From contig JBDNFH010000164.1 in assembly GCA_041689915.1 (NCBI GenBank), forward strand, positions 1 to 61,333: a stretch of 61,333 nucleotides of DNA. Reading direction: 5' to 3'. The notes under the pieces were generated by a model. It was not told the DNA's origin, did no database searches, and was given only the letters and a program-made list of their open reading frames with translations. Shown in pieces: positions 8,040 through 23,271 of this stretch (position 1 is the stretch's first letter; each line of letters begins with the position of its first letter). Origin of the DNA: Candidatus Nanopelagicales bacterium (GTDB lineage: Bacteria > Actinomycetota > Actinomycetes > S36-B12). Both the position numbers and the translations under genes were made by a program.

Positions 8040-8048
8040 GGACTAAGG

Positions 8049-8640: not shown

Positions 8641-8723
8641 CCCTACATAAACGGGTAATACCTCCGCTACGATCAGTTAAACTCAGTTAGATCGTGTTCG
8701 AACTACCCGGAGGGTCATGCGCT

Positions 8724-8891
8724 ATGTCTGAGCCTTGGTTTTCTGCCGACGGCATCGCCGCGCATTTAGGCGTCACGAAGGACACGGTCGTCGCCTGGAT
8801 CGCCGAGAAGCGAATGCCGGCTCACGAGGTCGGCAGACTCTGTAAGTTCCAGACCAGTGAGGTCGACGAGTGGGTCTGCAGCGGTGGGTAG
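8724..8891 (+). CDS. small excisionase/MerR-like helix-turn-helix DNA-binding protein (HTH_17-type)
   Basis: MSEPWFSADGIAAHLGVTKDTVVAWIAEKRMPAHEVGRLCKFQTSEVDEWV. GGAGGG at 8709-8714 lies upstream of ATG 8724. The gene ends 42 nt before brxA. Confidence 0.7.
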   Translation: MSEPWFSADGIAAHLGVTKDTVVAWIAEKRMPAHEVGRLCKFQTSEVDEWVCSGG

Positions 8892-8933
8892 CCATATCCT
8901 GAGCGACTTGCCTGAAACCGGATGGAGGTACCT

Positions 8934-9545
8934 ATGGCGAACGAGACCGCACGCGCATCACGCTACGCGTTGTCCTTCACCAGCGGCGCCCTCCTGATGC
9001 GCGAAGCGCTCGTCGCGGCCCCGATCTATCTCCATGAGCACGACTGGGCGAAGGTCCGTGAGCTGATCGAGGAGGACAACCTCCTTCAGTCCCGCACGCG
9101 TTCCTCCGGCTTCCGCCTAGCCCGCGAGGTCGCCCAGCGGCTCTCGGTGCTCACTGACGCCGAGATCGAGTTGCTCATCGACTCCACTACCTCTGAGCGG
9201 GGGCACCTTCTGTGGGCCGCGGCCTGCCGCCGTTACGACCTCATTGGGGAGTTCGCCGAAGAGGTGCTGCGTGAGCGCTACCTCATCCTCGCCCCGACGT
9301 TGGGCTACGACGACTTCGACAGTTTCGTCCGTGGCAAGGCCCTCTGGCACGAAGAAGTCGCTGACCTCAAGGACTCCACCTTGCGCAAGCTCCGTTCCAC
9401 CGTTTTTCGCATGCTCGTCGAGGCTGGCCTCGTGCCGGAGGACGGCCGGATCCTCCAAGCGGTGTTGTCCACGCGCGTTGCCGACGCGCTCTCGGCACGG
9501 ACACCCAGCGACATCCGCTTCTTTCCGACCGGAGGTACCCCGTGA
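8934..9545 (+). CDS. brxA: BREX protein BrxA (DUF1819 family)
   Basis: 203 aa with YALSFTSGALLMREAL...NLLQSRTRSS...EIELLIDS...LLWAAACRRYDLIGEFAEEVL, matching the DUF1819 pattern. GGAGG lies 5 nt upstream of ATG 8934. The track start at 8922 is less likely. Confidence 0.85.
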   Translation: MANETARASRYALSFTSGALLMREALVAAPIYLHEHDWAKVRELIEEDNLLQSRTRSSGFRLAREVAQRLSVLTDAEIELLIDSTTSERGHLLWAAACRRYDLIGEFAEEVLRERYLILAPTLGYDDFDSFVRGKALWHEEVADLKDSTLRKLRSTVFRMLVEAGLVPEDGRILQAVLSTRVADALSARTPSDIRFFPTGGTP

Positions 9546-10147
9546 TGAAGACGGCTGACCTGACCAAGCAGGAGGATCATCTGTTCGCTGTCCTCAGCGG
9601 CAAGCGCTTCCTGCAGATGGAGGGCCTCAGCAATGAGGTTCCGTTCTTCATTTACCCCTACCCGCCTGAGGCATCTCTCGCGGTGGCGCAAGCGAAGAAG
9701 CGAATCAAGACCAAGCTGTCCACGCAGCACGGCATCACGGTTCGTGAGGTCAACCTCTACGACCTGTCGGTAAAGATCCTCAAGGCCAGCGGTGACTGGG
9801 CTGAAGTACTCGAAGTCGAGCCGGGTCTCGACAAGTCGGACTTCTCCGAGATGTTGCAGTCCATGCTCAATCCGCAGCTGCACCTGGCACCGGCGATCCG
9901 GGAGAAGCTGGCGGGCGGCGACTTCGACATCGTCTTCCTCACGGGCATCGGTGAGGTCTTCCCTTACATCCGGTCGCACAACGTGCTCAACAACCTTCAG
10001 AGCGTTGTCACCGGCAAGCCAATGCTCATGTTCTTCCCCGGCCGCTACGAGCAATCCGACACCCTCGGCTCATCGCTTGTGCTCTTCGGGCGGTTGAAGG
10101 ACGACCAGTACTACCGAGCCAAGAATATTTTGGAACAGGAAGCGTGA
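9542..10147 (+). CDS. brxB: BREX protein BrxB (DUF1788 family)
   Basis: 201 aa with the FFIYPYPPE motif, in the position between brxA and brxC. Confidence 0.85.
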   Translation: MMKTADLTKQEDHLFAVLSGKRFLQMEGLSNEVPFFIYPYPPEASLAVAQAKKRIKTKLSTQHGITVREVNLYDLSVKILKASGDWAEVLEVEPGLDKSDFSEMLQSMLNPQLHLAPAIREKLAGGDFDIVFLTGIGEVFPYIRSHNVLNNLQSVVTGKPMLMFFPGRYEQSDTLGSSLVLFGRLKDDQYYRAKNILEQEA

Positions 10148-13100
10148 CCCAGATGCTGCTTAACGAGATCTTCGCCAAAGACGTCCAGCGCCCCATCGAG
10201 GGCGTCATCAAGGCGGACGACACTGCGCACCTGGGCACCGAGGTTGAGGAGTACGTCCTCACCAACGAGGCAGCCAAGAGCTTAGAGCTCCTACTCGAGG
10301 AGTACACGAACTACACCAACGCTAACGGCGTGTGGATCTCCGGCTTCTTCGGTTCCGGTAAGTCGCACCTCTTGAAGATGCTCGCCCACCTGCTCGGGGA
10401 CGTCGAGGGGCAGGCGCTTGAACGAGGCAACGTCTCCGAGAGTTTCCAGGCCAAGGCCCGCGGCGCGTTCCTGCCTGCCCTTCTCACCAAGACCGAGCGC
10501 ATCCCGGCCAGGAGCCTGCTGTTCAACATCGACCAGAAGGCATCGCTGATCACCAAAGACCAGGCCGACGCCCTGCTGAAGGTGTTCGTGAAGGTCTTCG
10601 ACGAGAGTCGCGGCTACTACGGGGATCAGGGGCATATCGCTCGATTCGAGCGCCAGCTCGACGAGGAAGGTCAGCTGGAAGCCTTCAAAGGTGTGTTTAA
10701 GTCGATCTCGGGCCGTGACTGGATGGAACGTCGGCCGAGCTTTGGGCTCCCCACGGTGCGAAAGCAGGTAGACGAGGCTTATGCGCAGGTGACGGGCGTC
10801 GACGTATCTAGCTCACTCGACATCCTGGCTACGTATCAAGCGACGTACGAAGTTTCGATCGAGGACTTCGCCGACGAGGTCAAGACGTGGCTAGACAAGC
10901 AGTCCGCCGATTTCCGCCTCAACTTCTTCGTCGACGAGGTCGGCCAGTTCATCGGCTCCAACACACACCTGATGCTCAATCTCCAGACGATCGCCGAGAG
11001 CCTCAACACCAAGTGCGCCGGACGAGCATGGGTGTTCGTCACCTCTCAGGAGGACATGGACAAGGTCGTCGGCGACCGCACCAAGGCGCAGGGCAACGAC
11101 TTCTCCAAGATCCAGGCCCGCTTCAAGACCCGCGTGAAGCTCACCAGCGCCGACGTCGAGGAGGTCATTCGCAAGCGTCTGCTCGACAAGAGCGACGCGG
11201 GCGCATCGGAGCTGAAGTCGATCTACGTCAAGGAGTCGGCGAACTTCAAGACTCTGTTCGACTTCGTCGACGGTGCGAAGACCTACCGCAACTACACAGA
11301 CGAGGCCCACTTCGTCGGCACATATCCGTTCGTGAGCTATCAGTTCCCGCTCTTCCAGGCAGCGATCGAGGGCATCTCCGATCACAATGTTTTCGAGGGC
11401 CGCAACAGCTCGGTGGGCGAGCGCTCGATGCTCGGAGTCGTCCAGCAGGTCGCCAAGGACATCGGTGACGTCGGAGTCGGCACGCTCGCAACCTTCGATC
11501 ACATGTTCGCTGGTATTCGGGCCTCACTGAAGTCCGCCGCACAGCGTTCCATCGACGTCGCCGAGCACAACCTCGACAATCCGCTCGCAATCCGCCTACT
11601 CAAGGCGCTGTTTCTCGTCAAGTACATCGAGAGCTTCCAGGCCACCCCCCGCAACCTGACCGTGCTGGTCTACGACCGCTTCGGCCTTGACCTTCCCGCC
11701 CTGGCGGAGGAGGTCAAGGAGGCGCTCACGCTGCTGGAGACGCAGACCTACGTTCAGCGCAACGGCAACATCTACGAGTACCTCACGAACGAAGAGCAGG
11801 TGATTGAGGAGGAGATCAAGAACGTCGACATCGATGCCTCCGAGGTCAGCAGTCGGCTTTTCAAGATCCTCTCCAACGACGTCATCAAGACCAACAAGCT
11901 GCGCTACGCCACGAACAGCCAGGACTTCCCGTTCGGCTTCAAGCTCGACGACCAGGTCCACGGCCCACATCGCGAACTCTCGGTCCACTTCATCACTCCG
12001 GAGTACCCCTTCGGCCCGGATGAGATCCGCATGCACAGCGCGGGCAAAGACGAGTTGCGCGTCATCCTCGAACCCGACGAGCGAGTCCTGACGGATCTGC
12101 GGCTCCTGATCAGGACCGAGAAGTACACCAAGCGCAAACAGACGACATCGCTCTCTGTGGTCGAGGACCAGATCCTGCGTTCAAAGGCGGTACAAAACGT
12201 CGAGCGCGAGAAGGAACTCATTGCTCGCATCCAGCGCGCCGCGGGTCAGTCCGCGCTCATCATCAACGCGGCCGACGTCACTTCCTCTTCGCAGGATGCT
12301 CTGACGAGAGTCACCGACGGCTTCCAAGAACTCGTCAGCCGCACCTACACCCAACTCAAGTTGCTGGGCGGTGTTACGTACAGCGAGCAGCAGGTAGCGG
12401 GTGCCGCCAACCCGGACAGCGGACTGTTCGACGCGGACGCGTTGTCGAAGATCAACCCGCCAGCCGAGGAGCTGCTGTCCTTCATCCTGCGCAAGGAGAA
12501 GCTAGGCGAGCAGGTCACCGTCAAGACGACTGTCGACACTTTCCAGGCCAAGCCCTACGGGTGGGACCTCGCCTCGATCGAGGTCATCGTCGCCTCGCTC
12601 ATTGGAGCCTCAAAAATCACGCTCACGGTGGACGGCAACGTCCTCAAGCGCAGCGAAATCGCGACGGCACTGCGCAACACGCAGAAGCACTCGCACGCAG
12701 TCGTCGCCCCGCAGAAGACCTTCGATGAGCGCAAGGTCGCCAACTTCCGCAAGTTCTGCACTGACTTCTTCGACGAGGGCAACGCACCCAAGGACCCGCT
12801 CGAACTCGCTCGCCACGGCGCGGACAAGCTCAAGGGCAAGCTTGACGAGCTGAAGGCGACCGTCAGCGGCTCGAAGTATCCGTTCATTGAGCAACTCAGC
12901 GGACCCATCACCCTCCTTGAGCAGGGCGTGGGCAAGTCCGATGACTGGTATCTCAACGACTTCGACCTCGACGACGAACTGCTCGAAGCCAAGGAGAACC
13001 TCATCGACCCGATCCAGTCGTTCCTCAACGGTGCGCAGCGGTCGATCTTCGACGAGGCCTCGGTGCTCCTATCCACGCATAGCAGCAACCTCAGCTACCT

Positions 13101-13632
13101 GCCCGCGGGCAGCGACGAGTCCATCAAGAACGCGCTCACCGACCCCAATGCCTTCCGCGGCAACAAGATGGCGCAGCTCAAGCAGGCCGCCGACAACCTC
13201 CGCGGCCAGATCGACACGATCGTGTCCGAGCGCCGAGGGGATGTCACGGCCGCGATCGAGAGCCGCAAGACCGAACTGGTCGGCGCGCACTACTACGCCA
13301 AGGCGACGCCAGAAGCCCAGCAGCGCGTCGTGCAGCGGATCGACTCGACATTGTCGCGAATTGGGAGCGAAAGCCAGGTCGCCCTCATCCTCCAGATCGG
13401 AGCGAACTTCGAGGCCAGCGACTACCCGGCCCTGCTCGACGTCCTTGCTTCCTGTCCGCAAGACCCGGGTCCCGACCCCACGCCCATGAAACAAACGGTC
13501 TCCGTGAGGACGATCGGAGTTCCCGGTGCATCGGGTGTGCTCGAAACCGAAGATGACGTCGACAAGTACCTCGCGGCTCTCCGTAGTGCGCTCGTCCAGA
13601 CTCTGAACGATGGAAAGCGAATCTCACTGTAA
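10144..13632 (+). CDS. brxC: BREX ATPase BrxC/PglY
   Basis: 1162 aa. Walker A GFFGSGKSH is at 10342-10365, followed by a DEVGQF Walker-B-like motif. Confidence 0.9.
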   Translation: MTQMLLNEIFAKDVQRPIEGVIKADDTAHLGTEVEEYVLTNEAAKSLELLLEEYTNYTNANGVWISGFFGSGKSHLLKMLAHLLGDVEGQALERGNVSESFQAKARGAFLPALLTKTERIPARSLLFNIDQKASLITKDQADALLKVFVKVFDESRGYYGDQGHIARFERQLDEEGQLEAFKGVFKSISGRDWMERRPSFGLPTVRKQVDEAYAQVTGVDVSSSLDILATYQATYEVSIEDFADEVKTWLDKQSADFRLNFFVDEVGQFIGSNTHLMLNLQTIAESLNTKCAGRAWVFVTSQEDMDKVVGDRTKAQGNDFSKIQARFKTRVKLTSADVEEVIRKRLLDKSDAGASELKSIYVKESANFKTLFDFVDGAKTYRNYTDEAHFVGTYPFVSYQFPLFQAAIEGISDHNVFEGRNSSVGERSMLGVVQQVAKDIGDVGVGTLATFDHMFAGIRASLKSAAQRSIDVAEHNLDNPLAIRLLKALFLVKYIESFQATPRNLTVLVYDRFGLDLPALAEEVKEALTLLETQTYVQRNGNIYEYLTNEEQVIEEEIKNVDIDASEVSSRLFKILSNDVIKTNKLRYATNSQDFPFGFKLDDQVHGPHRELSVHFITPEYPFGPDEIRMHSAGKDELRVILEPDERVLTDLRLLIRTEKYTKRKQTTSLSVVEDQILRSKAVQNVEREKELIARIQRAAGQSALIINAADVTSSSQDALTRVTDGFQELVSRTYTQLKLLGGVTYSEQQVAGAANPDSGLFDADALSKINPPAEELLSFILRKEKLGEQVTVKTTVDTFQAKPYGWDLASIEVIVASLIGASKITLTVDGNVLKRSEIATALRNTQKHSHAVVAPQKTFDERKVANFRKFCTDFFDEGNAPKDPLELARHGADKLKGKLDELKATVSGSKYPFIEQLSGPITLLEQGVGKSDDWYLNDFDLDDELLEAKENLIDPIQSFLNGAQRSIFDEASVLLSTHSSNLSYLPAGSDESIKNALTDPNAFRGNKMAQLKQAADNLRGQIDTIVSERRGDVTAAIESRKTELVGAHYYAKATPEAQQRVVQRIDSTLSRIGSESQVALILQIGANFEASDYPALLDVLASCPQDPGPDPTPMKQTVSVRTIGVPGASGVLETEDDVDKYLAALRSALVQTLNDGKRISL

Positions 13633-13648
13633 TGAACGAAGCACTTTG

Positions 13649-16600
13649 ATGGAAACCGCACCGCTGAAGTCCTTCGCGACGTGGGCTCGCAGTGCGCTCA
13701 TCCGCGAGGTCACCGCGCGCATCGCCACCGTGCTTGCGCCGGGCTCCTCCGAGCGAGTCGAGCAGACGAACGCTGTCGCCGCTCTGGAGAAGGCAGTCAC
13801 CGCTACGGGGGGAGGCGACAAGGGCCGCGCTGCCGTCGCTGACAAGGTTGCCTACACCTGGTTCAACCGGATTGTCGCGCTGCGATTCATGGACGCGAAC
13901 GGCTATACGGGCGTTGGTGTGCTCTCGCCGCAGTCAGGCGTTGAGGTCGGACAGCCTGAGATCCTCGCTGAGGCGAAACGCGGCGTCATCGACACCGAGG
14001 TTGTCAGCCGCCAGACCCGCGAGGCTGTCACGGGCTTGCTCGACGGCACGCGCAGTAGCGGCGACCCGCAGGGCGAGGCGTACGCGCTGCTGCTCGCGGA
14101 CTACTGCCGCCACTGGAACCGCTCGATGCCGTTCATGTTCGAGCGCGAGGGCGACTTCACCGAGTTGCTGATCCCGGCCAACCTACTCGCCGACGACTCA
14201 GTGCTCAACCGCTCCGTCAAGGTGCTGACCACCGAAGTCTGCCAGGACGTCGAAGTCATCGGTTGGCTCTACCAGTTCTACATCTCCGAGCGGAAAGACG
14301 AAGTCTTCGCCGGGTTCAAGAAGAACAAGAAGGCCGGCGCCGACGAGATCCCCGCAGCCACCCAGCTCTTCACCCCGCACTGGATTGTCCGCTACCTCGT
14401 CGAGAACTCACTCGGCAGACTCTGGATGCTCAACCGCCCGTCATCGCGGCTTACCGACCAGATGGACTTCTACATTGCCCCGGTCGACGAAGAAACGGAC
14501 TTCCTGAAGATCGCCAGCCCCGAGGAGCTGAAGATCATCGACCCCGCTTGCGGCTCGGGCCACCTGCTCACCTACGCCTTTGACCTCCTATACGCGATCT
14601 ACGAGGAGGAGGGCTACGCACCGTCCGAGATCCCCGGCCTGATCCTCGCCAACAACCTGTACGGAACCGAGATCGACCCGCGTGCGGGGGCCCTCGCTGC
14701 CTTCGCGCTCACCATGAAGGCCCGTGCAAAGCAGAGGACGTTCTTCAATCAGCACGTTGCGCCCAACGTTTGTGTCATCGAGCCGATCTCGTTCGGTCCC
14801 GACGAACTCGACCTTCTGTTGACCCAGGGGGGCGATCGCCACGAGGAGATCGCGTTCTGGAATCAGTTCGCGGAGGCAGACACGCTGGGTTCGTTGATCA
14901 AGCCAGATCTAGATCTGACGACTCGACTTCGACGCCACCTGGAGACACTCGACGGTGGCGACGACCTATTCACGGCGGACGTGATCGAGCAGGCTGCTCG
15001 AGTTGTGCGCCAAGCGGAGATCCTCGCCACGAGATACTCCGTGGTAGTGGCAAACCCGCCCTACATGGGGGCCAAAAGCATGGACAATCGCCTGGCCGAG
15101 TTTGCCAAGGCGGCGTACCAGCGGTCGCGATCTGACCTGTTCGCCATGTTCATTGAACGTTGCATTGGCCTCGTTAGAACCGGTGGCAACATTGGCATGA
15201 TCACCATGCAGTCTTGGATGTTCGGTTCTTCATTGGAACCGCTCCGCGACACCGTTCTACGTTCTACGTCAGTTCGTTCGATGGCTCACCTTGGCACAGG
15301 TGCTTTCGACACCATTAGCGGTGCGGTTGTTTCAACGACGGCGTTCGTGCTCGAGAAGCAGGATCCATTAGGCGATATGGCGGGAACATTTATTGATGTG
15401 ACTCGGTCGTCGACAGAGTCGGCAAAGCAAGCTCAATTGTTGCGAGCCATCGCGGATCGTTCAACCACGTTCGAGGTGAATACTTCCACCTTCAGGGGGA
15501 TCCCGGGCCAGCCGATCGCGTACTGGGTTTCGGAGGCAGTTGTGAAGACCTTTGAAAGTCACGAACCGCTCAGCGTCCTTGCAGACTTAAAGGCTGGCGT
15601 CTCCACGGGCGACAACACCATATTCCAACGCCAGTGGCACGAGGTTGGATGGTCACGGGTGAGTTCGACCGGATCTGGTGATACGCCTGTGGCTAACAGG
15701 TGGACTCCATGCAGTAGCGGTGGTCGATTGCGCCGTTGGTACGGCAACCGCGAAACCGTTATGGACTGGGAGCAGGATGGCAAACGCATTCGCTCTCATC
15801 TTGGCTCAGCGGTCAGGAACCCAACTTTCATGAGACGAGCTGGCCTGACCTACTCGAAGATTGGAGGAGCATTGTTCGCCGTCCGATTTGTAGAGCCCGG
15901 ATTTGTCTTTGATGACACTGGAAGGATGATCTTTCCTCGGCTTGAGGAGCACTCGCATGTCCTTGCAGCCGTGCTCAATTCGTCCATTGGGCAGTATTTT
16001 CTGGACGTCATGTCGCCGGGCCTTAGTTTCACTAGCTCGGAGATCGGCAATATCCCGGTGCCCCTCATTACGTTGGATGGATTGGCTAACTTGGTTGGTC
16101 GGGCGACGGAGATCGCCAAAAGGGACTGGGACATGAGCGAGACGTCCTGGGATCTCGTCGGCTCCCCTTTGCTGGATCCCTCATTGCCCGCGACAGCTTC
16201 ACTACGGGAACGTAACTCAGAGCTCTTGAGTCGAGCGCTCGCGACTAGCGAAGAGTTGAGAGGCCTTGAGGAGGCGATCAATGTCCGCGTTGCAGCCGAA
16301 TACGGTCTTGAGCATGTTGTCCACACGAACGTTCCACTTGGTCGGGTGACGCTCACTCAAAACCCAGCATTCCGATACGCGAGTGCGGAATCCACTTCTT
16401 ATGAGGAGATGGCATCCGCAGATTCCTGCCGCGATCTCGTATCGTTCGCGGTCGGTTGCGTGTTCGGGCGCTTCAGCCTGGATGAGCCGGGTCTGATCCT
16501 GGCTGACCAGGGTGCGACATTGCAGGACTACTTCGCCAAGGTGCCCGCACCGAGCTTCACCCCCGACGCCGACAATGTCATCCCGATCGTGGAGGGCGAC

Positions 16601-17119
16601 TGGTTTGAGGACGACATCGTGGCTCGGTTCCGCCAGTTCCTCCGGGTTGCCTTCGGTGAGCAGCACTTCGAGGAGAACTTGCGGTTCGTTACCGAGTCGC
16701 TGGGGGTGAAGGACATCCGCGACTACTTCGTGAAGTCTTTCTACAAGGACCACGTCCAGCGGTACAAGAAGCGCCCGATCTACTGGCTGTTCTCCAGCCC
16801 AAAGGGCTCGTTCAACGCGCTGATCTACATGCACCGGTACACCCCGTCGACGGTCTCAACTGTGCTCAACGAGTACCTCCGTGAGTTCCAGGCGAAGCTC
16901 AAAGCGAGCCTTGAGCACGCTGAGCGCTCCAATAATGCGAAGGAAGCCGACCGGCTCCGTAAGGTGCTGCTGGAGCTCGACGAGTACGAGCACGACGTCC
17001 TCTACCCGCTGGCGTCGCAGAACATTGTGATCGACCTGGACGACGGTGTGAAGGCGAACTACCCCAAGTTCGGTGCGGCGCTCAAGAAGATCGCGGGGCT
17101 TGAGGCGAGCCATGACTGA
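13649..17119 (+). CDS. pglX: BREX N6-adenine DNA methyltransferase PglX
   Basis: SAM motif I DPACGSGH is at 14540-14563 and motif IV NPPY at 15053-15064. Length is about 1157 aa. The start was moved to ATG 13649 (METAPLKSFA), downstream of the brxC stop. Confidence 0.9.
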   Translation: METAPLKSFATWARSALIREVTARIATVLAPGSSERVEQTNAVAALEKAVTATGGGDKGRAAVADKVAYTWFNRIVALRFMDANGYTGVGVLSPQSGVEVGQPEILAEAKRGVIDTEVVSRQTREAVTGLLDGTRSSGDPQGEAYALLLADYCRHWNRSMPFMFEREGDFTELLIPANLLADDSVLNRSVKVLTTEVCQDVEVIGWLYQFYISERKDEVFAGFKKNKKAGADEIPAATQLFTPHWIVRYLVENSLGRLWMLNRPSSRLTDQMDFYIAPVDEETDFLKIASPEELKIIDPACGSGHLLTYAFDLLYAIYEEEGYAPSEIPGLILANNLYGTEIDPRAGALAAFALTMKARAKQRTFFNQHVAPNVCVIEPISFGPDELDLLLTQGGDRHEEIAFWNQFAEADTLGSLIKPDLDLTTRLRRHLETLDGGDDLFTADVIEQAARVVRQAEILATRYSVVVANPPYMGAKSMDNRLAEFAKAAYQRSRSDLFAMFIERCIGLVRTGGNIGMITMQSWMFGSSLEPLRDTVLRSTSVRSMAHLGTGAFDTISGAVVSTTAFVLEKQDPLGDMAGTFIDVTRSSTESAKQAQLLRAIADRSTTFEVNTSTFRGIPGQPIAYWVSEAVVKTFESHEPLSVLADLKAGVSTGDNTIFQRQWHEVGWSRVSSTGSGDTPVANRWTPCSSGGRLRRWYGNRETVMDWEQDGKRIRSHLGSAVRNPTFMRRAGLTYSKIGGALFAVRFVEPGFVFDDTGRMIFPRLEEHSHVLAAVLNSSIGQYFLDVMSPGLSFTSSEIGNIPVPLITLDGLANLVGRATEIAKRDWDMSETSWDLVGSPLLDPSLPATASLRERNSELLSRALATSEELRGLEEAINVRVAAEYGLEHVVHTNVPLGRVTLTQNPAFRYASAESTSYEEMASADSCRDLVSFAVGCVFGRFSLDEPGLILADQGATLQDYFAKVPAPSFTPDADNVIPIVEGDWFEDDIVARFRQFLRVAFGEQHFEENLRFVTESLGVKDIRDYFVKSFYKDHVQRYKKRPIYWLFSSPKGSFNALIYMHRYTPSTVSTVLNEYLREFQAKLKASLEHAERSNNAKEADRLRKVLLELDEYEHDVLYPLASQNIVIDLDDGVKANYPKFGAALKKIAGLEASHD

Positions 17120-18116
17120 CCACGGCGAACTGATTCTGTATACCGCCGTGGACGGTGCGCGTTTCCAGTTGCGTGCCATTGACGGTACGGTCTGGCTCGC
17201 ACAGGCGCAGGTCGCTGATCTGTATGGCACGTCGACCCAGAACGTGCAGCAAACGATCGCCCGGGTTCTGGCCGATGGCGAGGTCGACGAGCGAACTATC
17301 AACTTTGAGTTGATAGTTCAGCAGGAAGGCTCCCGCACTGTTCGCCGTGAGGTCAAGGTGTACAACCTGGACATGGTGCTGGCAGTGGGCTACCGCGTCA
17401 CGACCCCGCGCGCGATCGCGTTCCGGCAGTGGGCGACGAGCGTTCTGCGCGAGTACCTCGTCAAGGGTTTTGCGATGGATGACCAGAAACTCAAGGCCGC
17501 CGACGGGTGGGACTACTTCGACGAGTGGCTGGCGCGGATCCGCGACATCCGAGCCTCGGAGAAGCGTTTTTACCAGAAGGTCCGAGATCTCTTTGCCACC
17601 GCCGTGGATTACGAGAAGTCCAGCGAGGCGGCCAGGGTTTTCTTCCAGAAGGTCCAGAACAAGATGCTTTGGGCCGTGACGGGGCACACCGCAGCAGAGA
17701 TCATCAGCGTTCGGAGCGACCCGGATGTAGTAAACATGGGCCTCACCTCGTGGGGCGGCAGCGTCGTGCGCAAGTCCGATGTGCCGGTTGCGAAGAACTA
17801 CCTGAACGCCGATGAGATCGCCGAACTGGATCTGATCGTCACCATGTACTTGGACTACGCCGAACTGCAAGCAAGGAATCGTCAGGCAATGACCATGGCC
17901 CAGTGGGCCGACCGGCTGGATGCGTTCCTGAAGTTCAACGAGCGGGAACTGCTCACCCATGCCGGGAGGGTTCGAGCTGAAGTCGCGAGAACGCTGGCAG
18001 AGTCCCGGTACGAAGAGTTCGAGCAGCAGCGCAAGCGTGACGCTTTGGCCGATGCCGATGCCGAGGACCTTGCAGCAATCGAGGCTCTCGAACAGCGCGG
18101 GAAGGACTTCGGGTGA
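17112..18116 (+). CDS. RhuM-family protein (Virulence_RhuM / COG3943-type) embedded in the BREX operon
   Basis: Family-typical strings are LILYTAVDG..VWLAQAQVADLYG, YNLDMVLAVGYRV, AFRQWATSVLREYLVKGF, IRDIRASEKRFYQKV, VQNKMLWAVTGHTAAEII, MGLTSW and VAKNYL..EI.EL. ATG 17112 overlaps the pglX stop and the gene's own stop overlaps the pglZ GTG. Confidence 0.85.
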   Translation: MTDHGELILYTAVDGARFQLRAIDGTVWLAQAQVADLYGTSTQNVQQTIARVLADGEVDERTINFELIVQQEGSRTVRREVKVYNLDMVLAVGYRVTTPRAIAFRQWATSVLREYLVKGFAMDDQKLKAADGWDYFDEWLARIRDIRASEKRFYQKVRDLFATAVDYEKSSEAARVFFQKVQNKMLWAVTGHTAAEIISVRSDPDVVNMGLTSWGGSVVRKSDVPVAKNYLNADEIAELDLIVTMYLDYAELQARNRQAMTMAQWADRLDAFLKFNERELLTHAGRVRAEVARTLAESRYEEFEQQRKRDALADADAEDLAAIEALEQRGKDFG

Positions 18117-20602
18117 CCGGACTTCGCGACCACCTCCTCCGACGATTCGACGAGCGCCGCGTGGTCTTCTGGCACGATCCGGAGGGTCAGCACTCCGCCG
18201 AGCTCGACAGCCTGGACCTTCCTGGCGTGACGACTGTTCGAGTCGCCAACGACGAGTACGCCATCAAGAATCGGCTCCTACACGATCGACCCGATGACAA
18301 GTTTCTCGTCTACCGTTGCGGCACCGTGCCCACTGGCATCGGCAACTGGCTGTACGACTTGGAGCTTGCCTACGGCGTGTTCACCGCCGACCGGACTTCC
18401 CTGGTGTCTCAGGATCTCGGCCTGACCGCTGACGGGATCGACGAGGTTGTTCAAGAGCACGAGAAGTTCTTCAACGCCAGTAAGCGCGTCCAGAGCCTCA
18501 AGGCATTGTTGAGGCCCGAGGATGACGCGGCCCGGCTCCGCGCCAAAATGTCCGCCGTCATGCTCAACCAGCGGGAGCACAGCCTGCTGGAGATCACCCG
18601 CACACTGCTTTCCGAGAACGCCAAGGGGCAGCGCACCAAGTACGACACGCTCGCCGACTACGCCCTCGACGACTTCTACTGGCGCGGCGTCGCCTCGATC
18701 TACGGCTACGAGTGCGCCTCGCCGAGCATTGACGACTTCACCCTCTGGATCTTCCGCAAGGCCATCGAAGGCTTCACGTCTGAGCGTCCCGGCGGCCTCC
18801 AGAACATCCAGCTCGACTTCGCGAGTTTGCGCAATGATCGTCGGAGTCAGGATGCCCTCTCGATTCTCGCGAAGCGTGCGTCGGCCGACCTCAACTACAA
18901 GGCGAGCATTGAGGATGCCAGCTTCCGCGATCTCGTCTCAGTCGACCTCTTTGAGGAGACCGACCAGAAGATCACCAGCGACCTTGCCCGAGCGGTCACC
19001 GAGCAGAGCGTCACGGCGCGCGAGGTCGCTGAAGTTGTTCGCGCCCGCCAGAGCAGTGTCTGGATCGATGGCTACCGCCAGCTCTACGCGGCGATTGGCG
19101 CTGCGGCGGAACTACTATCGGCGCTGGTGTCCATCGACTTCACGATGTCCTCGTTCGATGACGCGCTGGATCATTACCGGAACGACTGGTTCCGAATCGA
19201 CCAGCTCTACCGCCAGTTCACCTACGCCCACCGCACGTTCGAGGGACCCCATCCACTCGACCCGCTGCGCGAGCAGGTTGAGAAGCGATACACCAACAAG
19301 TTCGTCTACGAATTGGGCAACGCCTGGCAGGAGAAGGTCGACGAGGCTGACCAGTGGGCGTCGTCGGTGCTTCGCTCCCAGCGGTCGTTCTACGCCGACT
19401 ACATCGCGCGGCTCGTCCGTGACGATAAGAAAGCGGTCGTCATCATTTCCGACGCCCTCCGCTACGAGGTTGCCGAGGAACTGGGCTCACGGATCCGCCA
19501 AGAGGACCGCTTCGACGCCGACCTTGACGCGGTTCTGGGTGTCCTTCCTAGCTACACGCAACTCGGTATGGCGGCCCTGCTCCCGCACCGCACGCTCAAG
19601 CACTCGCTCGACGGGAAGACCGTGCTCGCCGACGACCAGCCGACGAATGGCACCGGCCCAAGAGGCAAGATTCTTGCAACGGTCGGCGGTTCCGCGATCC
19701 AAGCCGAGGACTTCAAGGCGCTAAACCCCGAGGAACGCCGCGAACTCTTCAAGAACAACCGTGTTCTGTACGTCTACCACGACGTCATCGATGCCACCGG
19801 TGACAAGCAGGGAACCGAGCGGCGCGTCTTCGAGGCGGCGGAGCAGGCTCTTGGCGAACTGGTCGACTTGGTGAAGAAGGCCGCGAACGCCAACGCGACC
19901 AACATCTTTATCACGGCCGATCACGGGTTCCTGTTCCAGGACGAGGCTCTGCCCGAACAGTTCTACCTCTCCGTGCAGCCGCAGGGCGACAAGATCTTGG
20001 TGACCAACCGCCGCTACGTCCTCGGACACGGGCTCAAGGTTGACTACGCCTTCACGACGTTCAGTTCAGTGCAGCTCGCGTTGGACAGCGACATCGAGGT
20101 GCAGATCCCCAAGTCGATCCACCGGCTCAAGTTGGCAGGCGGCGGCTCGCGGTTCGTCCATGGGGGAGCGACGCTCCAAGAGGTCGTCGTTCCGGTCCTC
20201 TCGATCAACAAGAAACGCAAGAGCGACACCCGCCTGGTCAACGTCGCGGTGCTACCCGAGTCCGACAAGATCACGACCGGCCAGATTGTCGTGAAGCTCT
20301 TCCAATCCGAGCCCGCGAGCGACAAGGTGCAGCCGCGCACGCTCCGCGCTGGCCTCTACGTCGGCGAGACGCTGATCTCTAACGACCCGCGGCCGGAGCT
20401 GAACTTCGACTCGACCTCGCCAGAGAAGCGGGATCGTTATCAGAGTGTGCAGTTGCTCCTCAACAAGGACTCCACCGACTACAACAACCGCGCCGTCGAG
20501 TTCCGCCTCGAAGAGCGCGTCCCCAACACCAACCACTGGCGCGTCTTTGCCAAGGCGATCTACACACTCAAGCGGTCCTTCGCATCAGACTTCGACTTCT
20601 AA
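18113..20602 (+). CDS. pglZ: BREX alkaline-phosphatase-superfamily protein PglZ
   Basis: 829 aa with VVFWHDPEG at the N-terminus. PglZ-domain strings are VVIISDALRYEVAEELG and FITADHGF. Confidence 0.9.
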   Translation: MTGLRDHLLRRFDERRVVFWHDPEGQHSAELDSLDLPGVTTVRVANDEYAIKNRLLHDRPDDKFLVYRCGTVPTGIGNWLYDLELAYGVFTADRTSLVSQDLGLTADGIDEVVQEHEKFFNASKRVQSLKALLRPEDDAARLRAKMSAVMLNQREHSLLEITRTLLSENAKGQRTKYDTLADYALDDFYWRGVASIYGYECASPSIDDFTLWIFRKAIEGFTSERPGGLQNIQLDFASLRNDRRSQDALSILAKRASADLNYKASIEDASFRDLVSVDLFEETDQKITSDLARAVTEQSVTAREVAEVVRARQSSVWIDGYRQLYAAIGAAAELLSALVSIDFTMSSFDDALDHYRNDWFRIDQLYRQFTYAHRTFEGPHPLDPLREQVEKRYTNKFVYELGNAWQEKVDEADQWASSVLRSQRSFYADYIARLVRDDKKAVVIISDALRYEVAEELGSRIRQEDRFDADLDAVLGVLPSYTQLGMAALLPHRTLKHSLDGKTVLADDQPTNGTGPRGKILATVGGSAIQAEDFKALNPEERRELFKNNRVLYVYHDVIDATGDKQGTERRVFEAAEQALGELVDLVKKAANANATNIFITADHGFLFQDEALPEQFYLSVQPQGDKILVTNRRYVLGHGLKVDYAFTTFSSVQLALDSDIEVQIPKSIHRLKLAGGGSRFVHGGATLQEVVVPVLSINKKRKSDTRLVNVAVLPESDKITTGQIVVKLFQSEPASDKVQPRTLRAGLYVGETLISNDPRPELNFDSTSPEKRDRYQSVQLLLNKDSTDYNNRAVEFRLEERVPNTNHWRVFAKAIYTLKRSFASDFDF

Positions 20603-20608
20603 GGCGGC

Positions 20609-22768
20609 ATGATGACCGAAGACACTGATCAGCCCGTGATCGACGACGACTTCCCCGAAGACGTCGCCGACGAGAGCACGACCAACCAGACACCCGAGCA
20701 GTCCGCCCTCGACATAAAAATCAACCAGCACTTCGCCGGAGTCGTCGTCCGCAAGGACCTGGTCAAGGCGGTCAAGGGCAACGCCATCGTTCCGTCGTAC
20801 GTCCTGGAGTACCTGCTCGGCCAGTACGCAGCGTCGGACGACGAGGCGACGATCCAGGCCGGCATCGGAACAGTTCGCCAGATTCTCTCCGACCATTACG
20901 TACACCGGAATCAGTCCGAGTTGGTGAAGTCGACCATCCGCGAGCGCGGGCGCTACAAGATCATCGACAGGGTTGCCGTCACCCTCAATGACAAGGACGA
21001 TGTTTACGAGGCTGAGTTCGCCAACCTCGGAATCAAGGGCGTCCTCGTCGAGCCAGCGACAATCACCGCCCACCCCAAACTCCTGGTTGGCGGTGTTTGG
21101 TGCATCTGCGATATCGAGTACTTCCATAGTGACAACGCCCGGGATGTTCCATGGATTCTCGGTTCGATCAAGCCGATCCAGCTGTCCAACTTCGATCTCG
21201 AGGGCTACCTCGCTGCCCGCCGGGAGTTCCCCACCGATGACTGGATCGACCTTCTGATCCAGTCGATCGGCTTCAACCCGGCCCTGTTCGGGCGTCGAGC
21301 GAAGCTCATCCAGCTTGTCCGGCTCATTCCGTTCGCCGAGCGCAACTACAACCTCGTGGAACTCGGCCCAAAGGGCACCGGCAAGTCACACATCTTCTCG
21401 GAGTTCTCACCCCACGGCATGCTGATCTCCGGTGGCGAAGTCACCGTTGCGAAGCTGTTCGTGAACAACTCCAACGGCCGTCTCGGCCTGGTCGGCTATT
21501 GGGACGTCGTGGCATTCGACGAGTTTGCCGGTCAGAAGAAGCGCACGGACAAGGCGCTGGTCGACATCATGAAGAACTACATGGCGAACAAGTCGTTCTC
21601 ACGTGGCGTCGAGACCCTTGGGGCCGAGGCGTCGATGGTTTTCGTTGGCAACACGTCCCACAACGTGCCGTATATGCTCAAGCACTCAGACCTGTTCGAT
21701 GAACTGCCAGAGAGCTACCACGATTCGGCGTTCCTCGATCGCCTGCACCACTACATCCCTGGCTGGGAGGTCGACACGATCCGGGGAGAGATGTTCTCTG
21801 ACGGCTACGGCTTCGTCGTTGACTACATCGCTGAGGTCCTCAAGTCGATGCGGGACGCCGACTATTCCGACCGCTACCAGCAGTACTTCACGCTCGGGTC
21901 GGATATCTCGACCCGCGACCGCGATGGCATCCACAAGACGTTCTCGGGCTTGATGAAGATCATCTATCCGCACGGAGAAGCGACCCAGGAGGAGATCCAG
22001 GAGATCCTCAGTTTCGCGATTGAGGGCCGCAAGCGCGTCAAGGACCAGATCCTGCGCATCGACTCGACTATGACGGACGTGAAGTTCGGCTACCTCGACA
22101 ACGCGGGCGAGTGGCACGGCGTCACGACCCTGGAAGAGGACGAGTACCCAAGGTATTACCGCCAGACGCGTCACGAGGATGCGGAGGACGCTGATAGCGA
22201 AGGAGTCGAAGCGGACGTCCCCGATGGCGGCGGCACCGAGTCTGAGCAAACGCCGGTACCAACGCTCTTCGAGGGGCATCGTGAGTATCAAGAGAACCAA
22301 CGGGGTGTGGCCTACGAGTCGTTGCTGATCCCTTACCTCAGGGGCGCAACCGAGATCACCATCACGGACCCCTACATCCGGCAGTTCCACCAAGCGCGAA
22401 ACCTGATGGAACTAATCGAGGGCATCGCCGCAATAAAAGACGCTGCCGACGAGGTGGCCGTCAAGCTCATCACCTCCGAGAACCCAGACGGCGTGGACAA
22501 GGTCCGAAAGCAGTTGGAGAACTTGATCAAGGTCCAGAAGGGTGCTGAAGCTGCCGGGATCAAGTTCGATGTCATCCTCGACAACACGATCCACGACCGC
22601 TCGATCGTTACCGATACCGGCTGGAAGATTCTTCTCGGTCGTGGCCTGGACATCTTCCAATTTGTATCTGGCGATGCGTTCGACCTCGCGACCAGGCTCC
22701 AGGAGTACCGCCAGGTCAAGGCATTCGGCGTGACCTACATCCGCGAGGGCGAAGGGACAGGTCGGTGA
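20609..22768 (+). CDS. brxL: BrxL-family AAA+ protein; C-terminal Lon-like domain replaced by an MIT_C-type PLD-fold domain
   Basis: The N-terminal ~515 aa carry BrxL strings: INQHFAGVVVRKDL, VPSYVLEYLLGQY, YEAEFANLGIK, Walker A GPKGTGKS at 21365-21388, WDVVAFDE and FLDRLHHYIPGWE. The last ~150 aa (from 22304) read YESLLIPYL..TDPYIRQFHQARN...IHDRSIVTDTGWKILLGRGLDIF. Confidence 0.85.
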   Translation: MMTEDTDQPVIDDDFPEDVADESTTNQTPEQSALDIKINQHFAGVVVRKDLVKAVKGNAIVPSYVLEYLLGQYAASDDEATIQAGIGTVRQILSDHYVHRNQSELVKSTIRERGRYKIIDRVAVTLNDKDDVYEAEFANLGIKGVLVEPATITAHPKLLVGGVWCICDIEYFHSDNARDVPWILGSIKPIQLSNFDLEGYLAARREFPTDDWIDLLIQSIGFNPALFGRRAKLIQLVRLIPFAERNYNLVELGPKGTGKSHIFSEFSPHGMLISGGEVTVAKLFVNNSNGRLGLVGYWDVVAFDEFAGQKKRTDKALVDIMKNYMANKSFSRGVETLGAEASMVFVGNTSHNVPYMLKHSDLFDELPESYHDSAFLDRLHHYIPGWEVDTIRGEMFSDGYGFVVDYIAEVLKSMRDADYSDRYQQYFTLGSDISTRDRDGIHKTFSGLMKIIYPHGEATQEEIQEILSFAIEGRKRVKDQILRIDSTMTDVKFGYLDNAGEWHGVTTLEEDEYPRYYRQTRHEDAEDADSEGVEADVPDGGGTESEQTPVPTLFEGHREYQENQRGVAYESLLIPYLRGATEITITDPYIRQFHQARNLMELIEGIAAIKDAADEVAVKLITSENPDGVDKVRKQLENLIKVQKGAEAAGIKFDVILDNTIHDRSIVTDTGWKILLGRGLDIFQFVSGDAFDLATRLQEYRQVKAFGVTYIREGEGTGR

Positions 22769-23114
22769 GCTTGGGAAAGTATTGTCGGAAAAGTCTGTTG
22801 GTGTTCTCGTTGCTTCCTGGTTGCCAGGGACTTGCAGGGTCGCAGAAGTACACCTTGACACCGATATCACGTGTGACGTCGAGGTGGCTGGCCATTTCGG
22901 TTCCTTGGTCCCAGGTCAAGGACTTGCGCAATTCTTGCGGTAGTTGTCCAAGGCCAGCAACCAGAGCGGCGTGCAGTGTCTGCGAATCGCGCCTCGCGAG
23001 ATGGAGTAATTTCACTTTGCGTGTTTGCCGATTGAAGAGTGTTCCAATCGCGGAGTGGTTCTGTTTCCCAACGATTAAGTCGCCTTCTTTACTATTTAGC
23101 CAGGGTGAGTTCAT
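22760..23114 (-). pseudogene. IS30-family transposase remnant (DDE core only, truncated at both ends)
   Basis: EGDLIVGK...SLTWDQGTEMA...VYFCDPASPWQPGSNENTNRLFRQYFPKLTDLS. Family similarity stops at TDLS, which coincides with the brxL stop (22766-22768). More degenerate, frame-broken similarity is possible up to about 23250. Confidence 0.7.
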
Positions 23115-23271
23115 GGCTGTTATGGTGTCGTGATCATCTCAGGTGATCACCACACCTTGATTTGGAATTCAGATCTCGGACTTCAGGTTGTGCCCGGAGT
23201 CGACTCGCAGGGACTGCTCACCGATTTTCCTCGAAAGGTAACCCAAAAGTCCGTTATCTCTACCTGCCTAC

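What the first reader, a model, noticed from the sequence alone, without database searches (positions are those of the whole stretch)
22157..22768. BrxL whose Lon-protease-like C-terminal domain is replaced by an MIT_C-type PLD-fold domain
Residues 1 to about 515 follow the BrxL pattern (N-domain plus AAA+/MCM-like ATPase). Canonical BrxL then ends in a ~180-aa Lon-protease-like domain. Here an acidic low-complexity linker (aa 517-555, RQTRHEDAEDADSEGVEADVPDGGGTESEQTPVPT) is followed by GVAYESLLIPYLRGATEITITDPYIRQFHQARNLMELIE ... KLITSENPDG ... IKFDVILDNTIHDRSIVTDTGWKILLGRGLDIFQ ... FDLATRL. From memory, this matches block for block the C-terminal PLD-like domain of human MITD1 ([34 protein letters not shown] ... 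IHLLTSLDEG ... [26 protein letters not shown] ... FSLGY). I see no Lon_C-like Ser-Lys dyad context. PLD-fold domains include nucleases (Nuc, BfiI), and the MITD1 version binds membranes. Either activity would imply a different output for this BREX motor protein than the proposed Lon-like one. Hand GC counts in this module (about 50-58%) are slightly below the rest of brxL (about 60%), which is a weak hint of domain swapping.
Basis: partly seen in the sequence, partly recalled or inferred. Interest (0 to 1): 0.78.

Follow-up and report, generated by a model that had tools for sequence, protein, structure and literature searches.

The report
BrxL with PLD-like (MIT_C) tail
The last gene of this BREX phage-defence operon encodes a DNA-ring ATPase that ends in a phospholipase-D-like "MIT_C" domain instead of the usual Lon-like domain; this is real, but about a third of such systems share it and two recent papers describe it.

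Summary
ORF 20609-22768 (+, 719 aa) is BrxL, the last gene of a complete type-1 BREX operon. It has BrxL_N, the BrxL AAA+ ATPase, an unconserved acidic linker of about 38 residues, and a full-length MIT_C domain (Pfam E 1e-38). A confident AF2 model of that domain matches the human MITD1 C-domain (TM 0.85-0.90), then PLD-family enzymes. Nothing Lon-like is present.

It is not new. PADLOC has an end-to-end model of this BrxL subtype. Li et al. 2025 noted MIT_C on many BrxL proteins. A 2026 NAR survey counted it in 1030 of 2913 type-1 BREX taxa and called it an HKD endoDNase with an HxR motif. I found it in at least 582 species, fused to BrxL in 77 of the 80 best loci. No experimental test turned up.

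The most likely role is a tethered, dimerising phosphodiesterase acting on DNA held by the ring. That is inference only. The K-to-R change and the enzymatically silent MITD1 argue for caution, and a purely dimerising role is a serious rival.

The GC hint of a Lon-to-MIT_C swap is not supported. However, nt about 22422-22744 inside MIT_C is a recombination tract from a different MIT_C allele, and such motor/MIT_C discordance recurs across the family.

The parts
20609..22768 (+). brxL CDS (719 aa; the NCBI gene call starts one codon later, giving 718 aa). It is the last gene of the type-1 BREX operon.
   Evidence: P0121 is this protein
20726..21121 (+). BrxL_N domain (aa 40-171).
   Evidence: Pfam PF20442, E 4e-47. 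It aligns with 8emc. K129 occupies the position of the DNA-contacting R104 of Acinetobacter BrxL.
21155..22075 (+). BrxL AAA+ (MCM-like) ATPase domain (aa 183-489). Walker A is GPKGTGKS (aa 253-260, nt 21365-21388). Walker B is D304-E305 (nt 21518-21523).
   Evidence: Pfam PF13337, E 2e-128. Alignment to 8emc; E305 aligns with E280 of Acinetobacter BrxL.
22151..22264 (+). Acidic low-complexity linker (aa 515-552; 11 D/E against 3 K/R).
   Evidence: In 73 homologues the linker is 31-63 aa, has no conserved positions and carries a median net charge of -4.
22274..22744 (+). MIT_C / PLD-fold domain (aa 556-712; the Pfam match covers aa 566-712).
   Evidence: Pfam PF16565, E 1e-38. MITD1 E 2e-17 with the single sequence and 6e-32 with a profile. 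AF2 pLDDT 93.5. Foldseek TM 0.85-0.90 to 4a5z/2ymb.
22367..22375 (+). Invariant D587-P588-Y589 just after strand beta2. D587 is the candidate carboxylate partner of the active-site His.
   Evidence: 73 of 73 sequences; secondary structure; the same motif is noted by Li et al. 2025.
22592..22600 (+). H662-D663-R664, the HxR counterpart of the PLD HxK motif. D669 lies four residues further on.
   Evidence: H and R are present in 73 of 73 sequences. The middle residue is D in 53 and A in 20. Position 669 is D in 61, N in 11 and E in 1. Sequence read.
22637..22651 (+). G677-R678-G679-L680-D681 loop after strand beta6, at the position of the PLD 'GSxN' motif.
   Evidence: G679, L680 and D681 are present in 73 of 73 sequences and R678 in 72 of 73.
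22422..22744 (+). Recombination (gene-conversion) tract inside MIT_C (aa about 605-712). It derives from a different MIT_C allele lineage, Aeromicrobium-MAG-like, than the rest of the gene.
   Evidence: Nucleotide identity to the closest relative L083 is 0.93-0.95 outside the tract and 0.64 inside. Identity to L084 is 0.73-0.80 outside and 0.85 inside. dS is 2.3 inside against 0.2-0.4 in the flanks. Informative sites: 75 of 88 are L084-like inside and 324 of 373 are L083-like outside, Fisher p = 5e-39. The window, not L083, is the incongruent sequence.
8922..20602 (+). Rest of the BREX type-1 operon: brxA 8922-9545, brxB 9542-10147, brxC 10144-13632, pglX 13610-17119, rhuM 17073-18116 (an inserted accessory gene), pglZ 18113-20602.
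   Evidence: Pfam hits.
22769..23114 (-). Truncated IS30-like transposase remnant (rve core) directly abutting the brxL stop codon. It marks the right edge of the high-GC BREX island.
   Evidence: Pfam rve, E 7e-8. GC falls from about 0.60 to about 0.51 here. Similarity to L083 ends at the stop codon.

Best explanation
This is a BrxL of the MIT_C subtype, the terminal component of an apparently intact type-1 BREX system.

**Shown**
- The N-domain and the MCM-like AAA+ ATPase are about 60% identical to Acinetobacter BrxL and have intact Walker A and B motifs.
- An unconserved acidic linker of about 38 residues follows.
- The protein ends in a single-copy PLD-fold MIT_C domain. Its polar residues D587, R591, Q595, N598, K610, H662, R664, D681, Q698 and R701 are invariant across phyla, and most are shared with human MITD1.

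**Inferred mechanism**
1. The motor assembles as a hexameric ring around phage DNA that lacks PglX methylation, as shown for the Lon-type protein.
2. The six tethered MIT_C domains pair up. MITD1's MIT_C is a homodimerisation domain, and single-copy PLD nucleases need a dimer to build one active site from two His motifs.
3. The paired HxR motifs form a metal-independent phosphodiesterase site that nicks or cuts the DNA held by the ring.

On this reading, BREX systems of this subtype have a built-in nuclease where the Lon-type systems have an inactive domain. The domain evolves much faster than the motor and is exchanged between alleles by recombination, as in this window. That fits an exposed module that phages act on.
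For: - **Domain identity and fold:**
- **PLD enzymes and the ATP-dependent PLD restriction enzyme SauUSI** appear as the next structural neighbours.
- **Invariant polar residues:** H662 and R664 are present in 73 of 73 proteins from Actinomycetota, Proteobacteria, Planctomycetota, Chloroflexota and others. D587, N598, K610, D681 and further polar residues are also invariant. The motif H-x-R-x4-D/N fits HxK(x)4D. This is far more polar invariance than a pure packing or dimer interface needs. Mean pairwise identity in the domain is only 0.57, against 0.83 in the ATPase.
- **Motor:** intact and homologous to the DNA-encircling Acinetobacter BrxL.
- **Context:** the operon is complete, with pglX and pglZ intact. 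The fusion is maintained in 77 of 80 genomes directly after pglZ.
- **Literature:** the same hypothesis is published on comparative grounds (PMC12065111; PMC12839542).
- **Other architecture:** MIT_C also occurs with a GIY-YIG nuclease domain in another protein, P0423. That fits a DNA-directed context.
Against: - No MIT_C domain has a demonstrated enzymatic activity. The papers I could read describe the only characterised member, human MITD1, as a dimerising, membrane-binding module, yet it keeps the same DPY/HDR/GRGLD residues.
- The Lys of HxK is invariantly Arg here. In mammalian PLD1 the K898R change in an HKD motif is the standard catalytically dead allele (papers found; that K898 lies in the HKD motif is from my own knowledge). 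So 'conservative, likely active' is not a safe assumption.
- The GSxN motif is replaced by (G/D)RGLD, and no PLDc Pfam model matches at E<=1. TM-scores to true PLD enzymes are only 0.4-0.5.
- The domain is mildly acidic (median pI 5.9, net charge -2), so it is not an obvious DNA binder by itself.
- The dimer geometry could not be examined: no coordinates and no multimer prediction were available, and the full-length AF2 model failed with pLDDT 39.
Confidence: 0.45

Rival explanations
1. Non-catalytic dimerisation or tethering module. MIT_C would replace the Lon-like domain in the one role shown for that domain, which is joining two BrxL rings tail to tail or pairing protomers. The PLD-like pocket would be a conserved structural or ligand-binding relic.
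For: - In Acinetobacter BrxL the Lon-like C-terminal domain lacks catalytic residues, is monomeric on its own, and mediates tail-to-tail dimerisation of the hexamer or heptamer rings (PMC10164562).
- MITD1 dimerises through exactly this domain (PMC3496609).
- Replacing one domain with a non-homologous one that does the same job is parsimonious.
- The K-to-R change and the loss of GSxN are compatible with an inactive PLD.
Against: - Eleven or more invariant polar or charged residues are kept across phyla and into human MITD1. A simple interface does not explain this.
- A disordered acidic linker of 31-63 residues does not suit rigid ring-on-ring stacking like that of the Lon-type protein.
- The surface of the domain is the fastest-evolving part of the protein, whereas a homodimer interface should be constrained.
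Confidence: 0.25
2. Membrane or phospholipid-headgroup binding module, as reported for MITD1. It would hold the BrxL ring at the inner face of the cell membrane, where phage DNA enters.
For: MITD1's PLD-like domain is described as mediating membrane association (title of Hadders et al. 2012, cited). The fold match is very close (TM 0.85-0.90) and the pocket residues are shared.
Against: - The argument rests on analogy only.
- The bacterial domains are net acidic, which works against binding anionic bacterial lipids.
- No amphipathic or hydrophobic insertion element stands out in the sequence.
- The Hadders paper was not in the held library, so the membrane-binding residues could not be compared.
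Confidence: 0.1
3. The fusion is an artefact: a misassembly, or a recent chimera created at the island boundary next to the IS remnant.
For: The gene ends exactly at an IS30-like remnant and at a GC step. Its 3' third has a different ancestry from the rest of the gene.
Against: - The same architecture is present in the best 120 homologue clusters and in 77 of 80 independent genomes.
- The PADLOC model PDLC02508 matches end to end.
- The closest relative, L083, has the same C-terminal tail (...TYIREGEG) in a different downstream context.
- The foreign tract is itself an MIT_C sequence, in frame, with every invariant residue kept.
Confidence: 0.01

Closest known systems
BrxL, MIT_C/'HKD-endoDNase' subtype (PADLOC PDLC02508; NCBIfam TIGR02688; described in Li et al. 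2025, PMC12065111, and in the 2026 NAR BREX survey, PMC12839542)
   Same: The architecture is identical: BrxL_N, BrxL_ATPase, linker, then MIT_C with the HxR motif. The operon position after pglZ is the same. The PADLOC profile matches end to end at 1127 bits.
   Different: Nothing differs at the level of kind. Three features are particular to this copy: the 3' two-thirds of its MIT_C domain is a recombinant tract, rhuM is inserted between pglX and pglZ, and an IS remnant abuts the stop codon.
Acinetobacter sp. BrxL (PDB 8emc/8emh), the characterised Lon-type BrxL
   Same: The N-domain and AAA+ ATPase are homologous over aa 32-507 (E 2e-147). Walker A and B motifs and the basic pore residues are retained. 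The operon role is the same.
   Different: Its C-terminal domain of about 180 aa is Lon/RadA-like, follows the ATPase directly and stacks ring on ring. Here that domain is absent. An acidic linker plus a PLD-fold MIT_C domain takes its place.
Human MITD1 C-terminal domain (PDB 4a5z, 2ymb; Pfam MIT_C PF16565)
   Same: Same fold: TM 0.85-0.90, rmsd about 2 A, 30% identity. The DPY, HQ..N, HDR, GW and GRGLD motifs are shared. In MITD1 the domain is a homodimerisation domain.
   Different: MITD1 joins the domain to an N-terminal ESCRT-III-binding MIT domain and works in cytokinesis and membrane binding. Here it is joined to a DNA-ring ATPase of a phage-defence system. R597, nearly invariant in the bacterial proteins, is Tyr in MITD1.
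Single-HKD PLD-superfamily nucleases and ATP-dependent PLD restriction enzymes (Nuc, Zucchini/PLD6 4ggj, BfiI, SauUSI 7clg)
   Same: PLD fold (Foldseek probability 0.99-1.0). One His motif per domain, so a dimer would be needed for an active site. In SauUSI a PLD nuclease domain is coupled to an ATP-driven motor.
   Different: The motif is HxR rather than HxK, and (G/D)RGLD replaces GSxN. No PLDc Pfam match is found. TM-scores are only 0.4-0.5. No activity is known for any MIT_C domain.
NsnC 'PB-PLD1' domain of the Menshen system (Li et al. 2025)
   Same: Li et al. describe it as an MIT_C-like PLD domain with the same D/E-after-beta2 and HDR motifs, in a defence protein. A weak PADLOC NsnC hit covers aa 61-165 of the C-terminal fragment (E 0.016).
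   Different: It is fused to ParB-like proteins, not to BrxL. The sequence similarity here is marginal.

Membership tests
BrxL (type-1 BREX AAA+ protein) | BrxL_N domain and BrxL AAA+ ATPase domain with Walker A and B motifs | tested here: met
   PF20442 E 4e-47 and PF13337 E 2e-128. TIGR02688 scores 624 bits against a cut-off of 329. GPKGTGKS and the DE Walker B motif align with 8emc.
BrxL (type-1 BREX AAA+ protein) | Encoded at the end of a brxA-brxB-brxC-pglX-pglZ operon | tested here: met
   All five partner genes lie upstream on the same strand, with rhuM inserted between pglX and pglZ.
BrxL, Lon-type subfamily (TIGR02653; 8emc) | C-terminal Lon/RadA-like domain of about 180 aa | tested here: not met
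   TIGR02653 aligns only over its positions 3-470 of 675 and scores below its cut-off. No Lon_C Pfam hit. The 8emc alignment stops at aa 507. No Lon-like Foldseek hit.
BrxL, MIT_C subtype (PADLOC PDLC02508) | End-to-end match, including the C-terminal domain | tested here: met
   aa 32-713 match profile positions 2-695 of 698 at 1127 bits. The C-terminal fragment alone matches positions 523-695 with E 2e-56.
MIT_C (Pfam PF16565) | Profile match above the gathering score over the whole domain | tested here: met
   132.8 bits against 25, covering profile positions 1-142 of 142.
MIT_C (Pfam PF16565) | Fold of the MITD1 C-domain | tested here: met
   AF2 pLDDT 93.5. Foldseek E 1e-16, TM 0.85-0.90 to 4a5z/2ymb.
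MIT_C (Pfam PF16565) | Homodimerisation through the domain | not testable with these tools
   Shown for MITD1. No multimer prediction or model coordinates were available here.
PLD superfamily (HKD) nucleases | PLD fold | tested here: met
   Foldseek probability 0.98-1.0 to PLD2, PLD3, Zucchini, Streptomyces PLD and SauUSI, but TM-scores are only 0.38-0.50.
PLD superfamily (HKD) nucleases | HxK(x)4D motif with the catalytic Lys | tested here: not met
   The motif is H662-x-R664-x4-D669. Arg is present in 73 of 73 sequences and Lys in none.
PLD superfamily (HKD) nucleases | GSxN motif and a match to the PLDc sequence models | tested here: not met
   The loop reads (G/D)RGLD. No PLDc or PLDc_2 Pfam hit at E<=1.
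PLD superfamily (HKD) nucleases | Phosphodiesterase or nuclease activity through a phospho-His intermediate | not testable with these tools
   This needs biochemistry. I found no report of activity for any MIT_C domain.

The most novel reading that the evidence does not exclude
The MIT_C module is the exposed, fast-diversifying effector end of BrxL. It would be an active HxR-type PLD phosphodiesterase supplying DNA cleavage in about a third of type-1 BREX systems. Its surface would be under arms-race selection, for example from phage inhibitors. That would explain why it evolves about 2.5 times faster than the motor and why MIT_C alleles are repeatedly swapped between brxL genes by gene conversion, as in this window (tract 22422-22744). 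By extension, the identical pocket in human MITD1 would be a relic of, or still be, an enzyme active site.
Probability: 0.3. Interest if true: 0.6.

Novelty: already known. Interest (0 to 1): 0.3.

Why it matters
How BREX stops phage DNA is still debated. The characterised Lon-type BrxL has an inactive C-terminal domain. If the MIT_C tail is a working nuclease, roughly a third of type-1 BREX systems would have a built-in DNA-cutting effector. The enzymatically silent human MITD1 domain would then also deserve re-examination.

The architecture and this hypothesis are already in the literature (2025, 2026) and in annotation resources, so this window adds no new kind of system. Its small contribution is a clean example of allelic recombination inside the MIT_C domain, together with evidence that the domain diversifies independently of the motor.

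Tried and rejected
- **Full-length AF2 model.** I built it from 29 homologues that are all 79-90% identical to the query. It failed (mean pLDDT 39). It therefore says nothing about linker disorder or about docking of MIT_C on the ring.
- **Profile search of the 50%-identity representative library.** It found 1701 clusters at E<=1e-3 and 275 at E<=1e-30. The listed representatives are mostly gene fragments, so they are of little use for counting architectures.
- **Apparent stand-alone MIT_C genes.** P0097 and P0118 sit on long contigs, but each overlaps an upstream BrxL_N+ATPase ORF, and pglZ is split in the same contigs. They are frameshift-split brxL genes, not free-standing MIT_C.
- **GC-based domain swap.** Not significant.
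- **rhuM and MIT_C co-occurrence.** Absent in 80 of 80 surveyed loci and shared only with the nearest relative.
- **MITD1 structure paper (Hadders 2012).** It is not in the held library, so its statements on the active site and the dimer interface could not be checked.
- **Host identification.** Searches with GlgE and GlgX gave only unnamed metagenome hits. The nearest named hits are Actinomycetales and Nanopelagicales MAGs at about 60% identity.
- **Island-end repeats.** A direct and inverted repeat scan of 7900-23400 found no island-end repeats. The two tRNA genes in the window lie far from the island.
Full report
**1. What is in the sequence**

The finding lies in the 3' part of ORF 20609-22768 (+, 719 aa).
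- Pfam finds BrxL_N (aa 40-171, E 4e-47) and BrxL_ATPase (aa 183-489, E 2e-128).
- It also finds a complete MIT_C domain at aa 566-712 (profile positions 1-142 of 142, E 1e-38, 132.8 bits against a cut-off of 25). No Lon_C match appears even at E<=1.
- NCBIfam's Lon-type BrxL model TIGR02653 aligns only over its first 470 of 675 positions and falls below its cut-off. The 449-position BrxL equivalog TIGR02688 passes.
- Against PDB sequences, aa 32-507 match Acinetobacter BrxL (8emc, E 2e-147). aa 560-684 match the human MITD1 C-domain (4a5z/2ymb, E about 2e-17, improving to 6e-32 with a profile of bacterial homologues).
The H662/R664 codon coordinates (22592-22600) are correct. The quoted linker string starts at aa 518 rather than 517, which is trivial.

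An AF2 model of aa 556-719, built on a 42-sequence alignment, is confident (pLDDT 93.5, pTM 0.88). Foldseek against the PDB returns MITD1 first (TM 0.85-0.90, rmsd about 2 A, 30% identity). PLD2, PLD3, vaccinia F13, Zucchini, Streptomyces PLD and the ATP-dependent restriction enzyme SauUSI follow, at probability 0.98-1.0 but TM 0.4-0.5. No Lon or BrxL C-terminal domain appears.

**2. Context**

The gene closes a complete type-1 BREX operon: brxA 8922-9545, brxB 9542-10147, brxC 10144-13632, pglX 13610-17119, pglZ 18113-20602 and brxL. A RhuM-family gene (17073-18116) is inserted between pglX and pglZ.

The operon is a high-GC island (0.58-0.65 per gene) in a context of about 51% GC. That context consists of the glgB and glgE genes on one side and glgX on the other.
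- The island's right edge is a truncated IS30-like transposase remnant (22769-23114, minus strand) that begins directly after the brxL stop codon.
- The left side holds a weak transposase-like fragment (8159-8467, minus strand) and a small HTH_17 gene (8694-8891).
- The host is an uncultured actinobacterium. GlgE has only unnamed close relatives, and the nearest named ones are Actinomycetales and Nanopelagicales MAGs at about 60% identity.

**3. How common the architecture is**

- All of the best 120 homologue clusters (79-90% identical; Streptomyces, Micromonospora, Arthrobacter, Georgenia, Aeromicrobium and others) carry BrxL_N + BrxL_ATPase + MIT_C.
They span Actinomycetota, Alpha-, Beta-, Gamma- and Deltaproteobacteria, Planctomycetota, Chloroflexota, Bacteroidota and others.
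- In 77 of the best 80 loci the domain sits 120-200 nt downstream of a BrxL ATPase match on the same strand, usually with pglZ directly upstream. The three exceptions are truncated remnants or a contig end.
- Two apparent stand-alone MIT_C genes that I checked (P0097, P0118) turned out to be frameshift-split brxL genes.
- PADLOC (2023) already holds a 698-position BrxL model that matches this protein end to end.

**4. What the literature says**

- Li et al. [quoted passage not shown] They note the conserved acidic residue after beta2 and the HDR motif, and suggest that both MITD1 and BrxL may be enzymes.
- The 2026 NAR survey of BREX diversity (PMC12839542) counts 1030 of 2913 type-1 BREX taxa in which the Lon-like domain is replaced by an 'HKD-endoDNase' with a K-to-R (HRD) motif. 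It shows an AF3 model and proposes that the domain degrades invading DNA.
- I found no experimental test of this.

**5. Anatomy and conservation**

I compared 73 full-length BrxL-MIT_C proteins from different species.
- The linker between the ATPase and MIT_C is 31-63 residues long, has no conserved positions and is net acidic (median net charge -4; this copy has 11 D/E against 3 K/R).
- Within MIT_C the invariant residues are D587, P588, Y589, R591, Q595, N598, K610, T622, G650, H662, R664, G671, W672, L676, G679, L680, D681, Q698, R701 and F706. R597 and R678 are each present in 72 of 73.
- On the model's secondary structure, D587 follows beta2 and H662-x-R664 precedes beta5. D669 (D/N/E) lies four residues after R664. 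(G/D)RGLD follows beta6, in the place of the PLD GSxN motif.
- Most of these residues are shared with human MITD1.
- The motor has intact Walker A and B motifs, and basic residues occupy the DNA-contact positions of the Acinetobacter protein.

**6. Mechanism**

The best-supported reading is that the ring loads on unmodified DNA, as shown for the Lon-type BrxL. The tethered MIT_C domains would then dimerise. The precedents are MITD1's self-association through this domain and, from established knowledge, the need of single-motif PLD nucleases such as Nuc, Zucchini and BfiI to dimerise. The dimer would form a two-His phosphodiesterase site acting on the captured DNA.

Only the domain identities and the conservation are shown. 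Loading, dimerisation and catalysis are inferred.

Several points weigh against treating it as a proven 'HKD endoDNase':
- The catalytic Lys is never present.
- The corresponding K-to-R change is the standard way to inactivate mammalian PLD1 (K898R; papers found).
- GSxN is absent, and no PLDc model matches.
- MITD1 has the same residues but no reported activity.
- The domain is mildly acidic.

A serious rival is that MIT_C simply takes over the ring-to-ring or protomer-pairing role shown for the Lon-like domain. The many invariant polar residues and the long floppy linker fit that less well. Membrane binding, as in MITD1, rests on analogy only. I put the catalytic model at about 0.45, the structural one at 0.25 and membrane binding at 0.1.

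**7. The 'domain swap' hint**

GC does not support a swap. MIT_C is 57.5% GC against 60.6 +/- 2.3% for same-sized windows of the operon, and 9% of those windows are as low. The Lon/MIT_C alternative is ancient, not a recent event in this contig.

There is, however, a real mosaic, in a different place.
- **Identity profile.** Against the closest relative (locus L083, 90% protein identity, also carrying rhuM), nucleotide identity is 0.88-0.98 from pglZ to about nt 22420. It falls to 0.60-0.68 up to about 22700 and then recovers.
- **Substitution rates.** dS is 0.2-0.4 in every segment except aa 605-690, where it is 2.3. dN there is 0.33, against 0.01-0.08 elsewhere. Saturated synonymous sites rule out mere fast evolution.
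- **Three-way comparison.** In a comparison with an Aeromicrobium-MAG brxL (L084), the window is L083-like at 324 of 373 informative sites outside 22422-22744. It is L084-like at 75 of 88 sites inside (Fisher p = 5e-39).
- **Direction.** Third-party comparisons show that the window, not L083, is the incongruent sequence.
- **Tract content.** The tract starts just after the conserved HQARNLME coding stretch and runs almost to the end of the domain. All invariant residues are kept.

The pattern recurs across the family.
- MIT_C evolves much faster than the motor. Mean pairwise identity is 0.57, against 0.83 for the ATPase.
- Of 147 sequences whose nearest ATPase neighbour is at least 95% identical, 16 have under 75% identity to that neighbour in the MIT_C core.
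- Variability concentrates in helix aa 629-648 and the adjacent strands, while the pocket motifs are fixed.
- The two papers do not appear to mention this; the word 'recombination' does not occur in the 2026 survey. It fits a module under diversifying pressure, but that reading is speculative.

**8. Verdict**

The finding is real, correctly read and statistically overwhelming, but already described and very common. Its function is untested. Novelty: already known. Interest is about 0.3, most of it coming from the open mechanistic question and the newly seen intradomain recombination.

Noticed in passing
window 22422-22744 (inside brxL MIT_C): A recombination tract of about 320 nt from a different MIT_C allele lineage. 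dS is 2.3 inside against 0.2-0.4 in the flanks. Informative sites are 75 of 88 L084-like inside and 324 of 373 L083-like outside, p = 5e-39. Across the family, 16 of 147 close ATPase neighbours have discordant MIT_C cores.
   Followed up: yes
window 17073-18116 (+): A RhuM-family gene (Pfam E 8e-107) is inserted between pglX and pglZ, and its reading frame overlaps both neighbours. The closest relative, L083, has the same insertion. None of the 80 other BrxL-MIT_C loci has it, although several of them have a gap of 1.2-1.5 kb at the same position that may hold other accessory genes.
   Followed up: partly
window 22769-23114 (-): A truncated IS30-like transposase remnant (rve core, cut at both ends) starts immediately after the brxL stop codon. 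It coincides with the drop from about 60% to about 51% GC and so marks the right edge of the BREX island.
   Followed up: partly
window 8040-8921: The left edge of the island is high-GC (0.60) non-coding or degraded sequence. It holds a weak transposase-like fragment (8159-8467, minus strand; UPF0236/ISL3-like, E about 0.01) and a small HTH_17 gene (8694-8891, plus strand, E 9e-9) just upstream of brxA. The HTH gene may be a regulator.
   Followed up: partly
window 3835-8039 and 23272-25344: The BREX island sits between glycogen and alpha-glucan genes: glgB and glgE on one side, glgX on the other, all on the minus strand at about 51% GC. The host is an uncultured actinobacterium with no close named relative.
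   Followed up: partly
L083:1-6507: The closest related BREX locus carries two consecutive pglX-like methyltransferase genes (1163 aa, cut by the locus end, and 1154 aa) upstream of rhuM. The window has one.
   Followed up: no
protein P0423 (652 aa; representative library): MIT_C occurs in a different architecture, DUF7669 + MIT_C + DUF6884 + GIY-YIG nuclease. P0382 shows MIT_C followed by S1 domains, which may be a gene-fusion artefact. I did not check whether these are real proteins.
   Followed up: no
L036 and L037 (Propionibacteriaceae): These loci keep only the last 100 or so residues of the BrxL ATPase plus MIT_C, with no pglZ, pglX or brxC within 10 kb upstream. They are probably decayed BREX remnants.
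   Followed up: no
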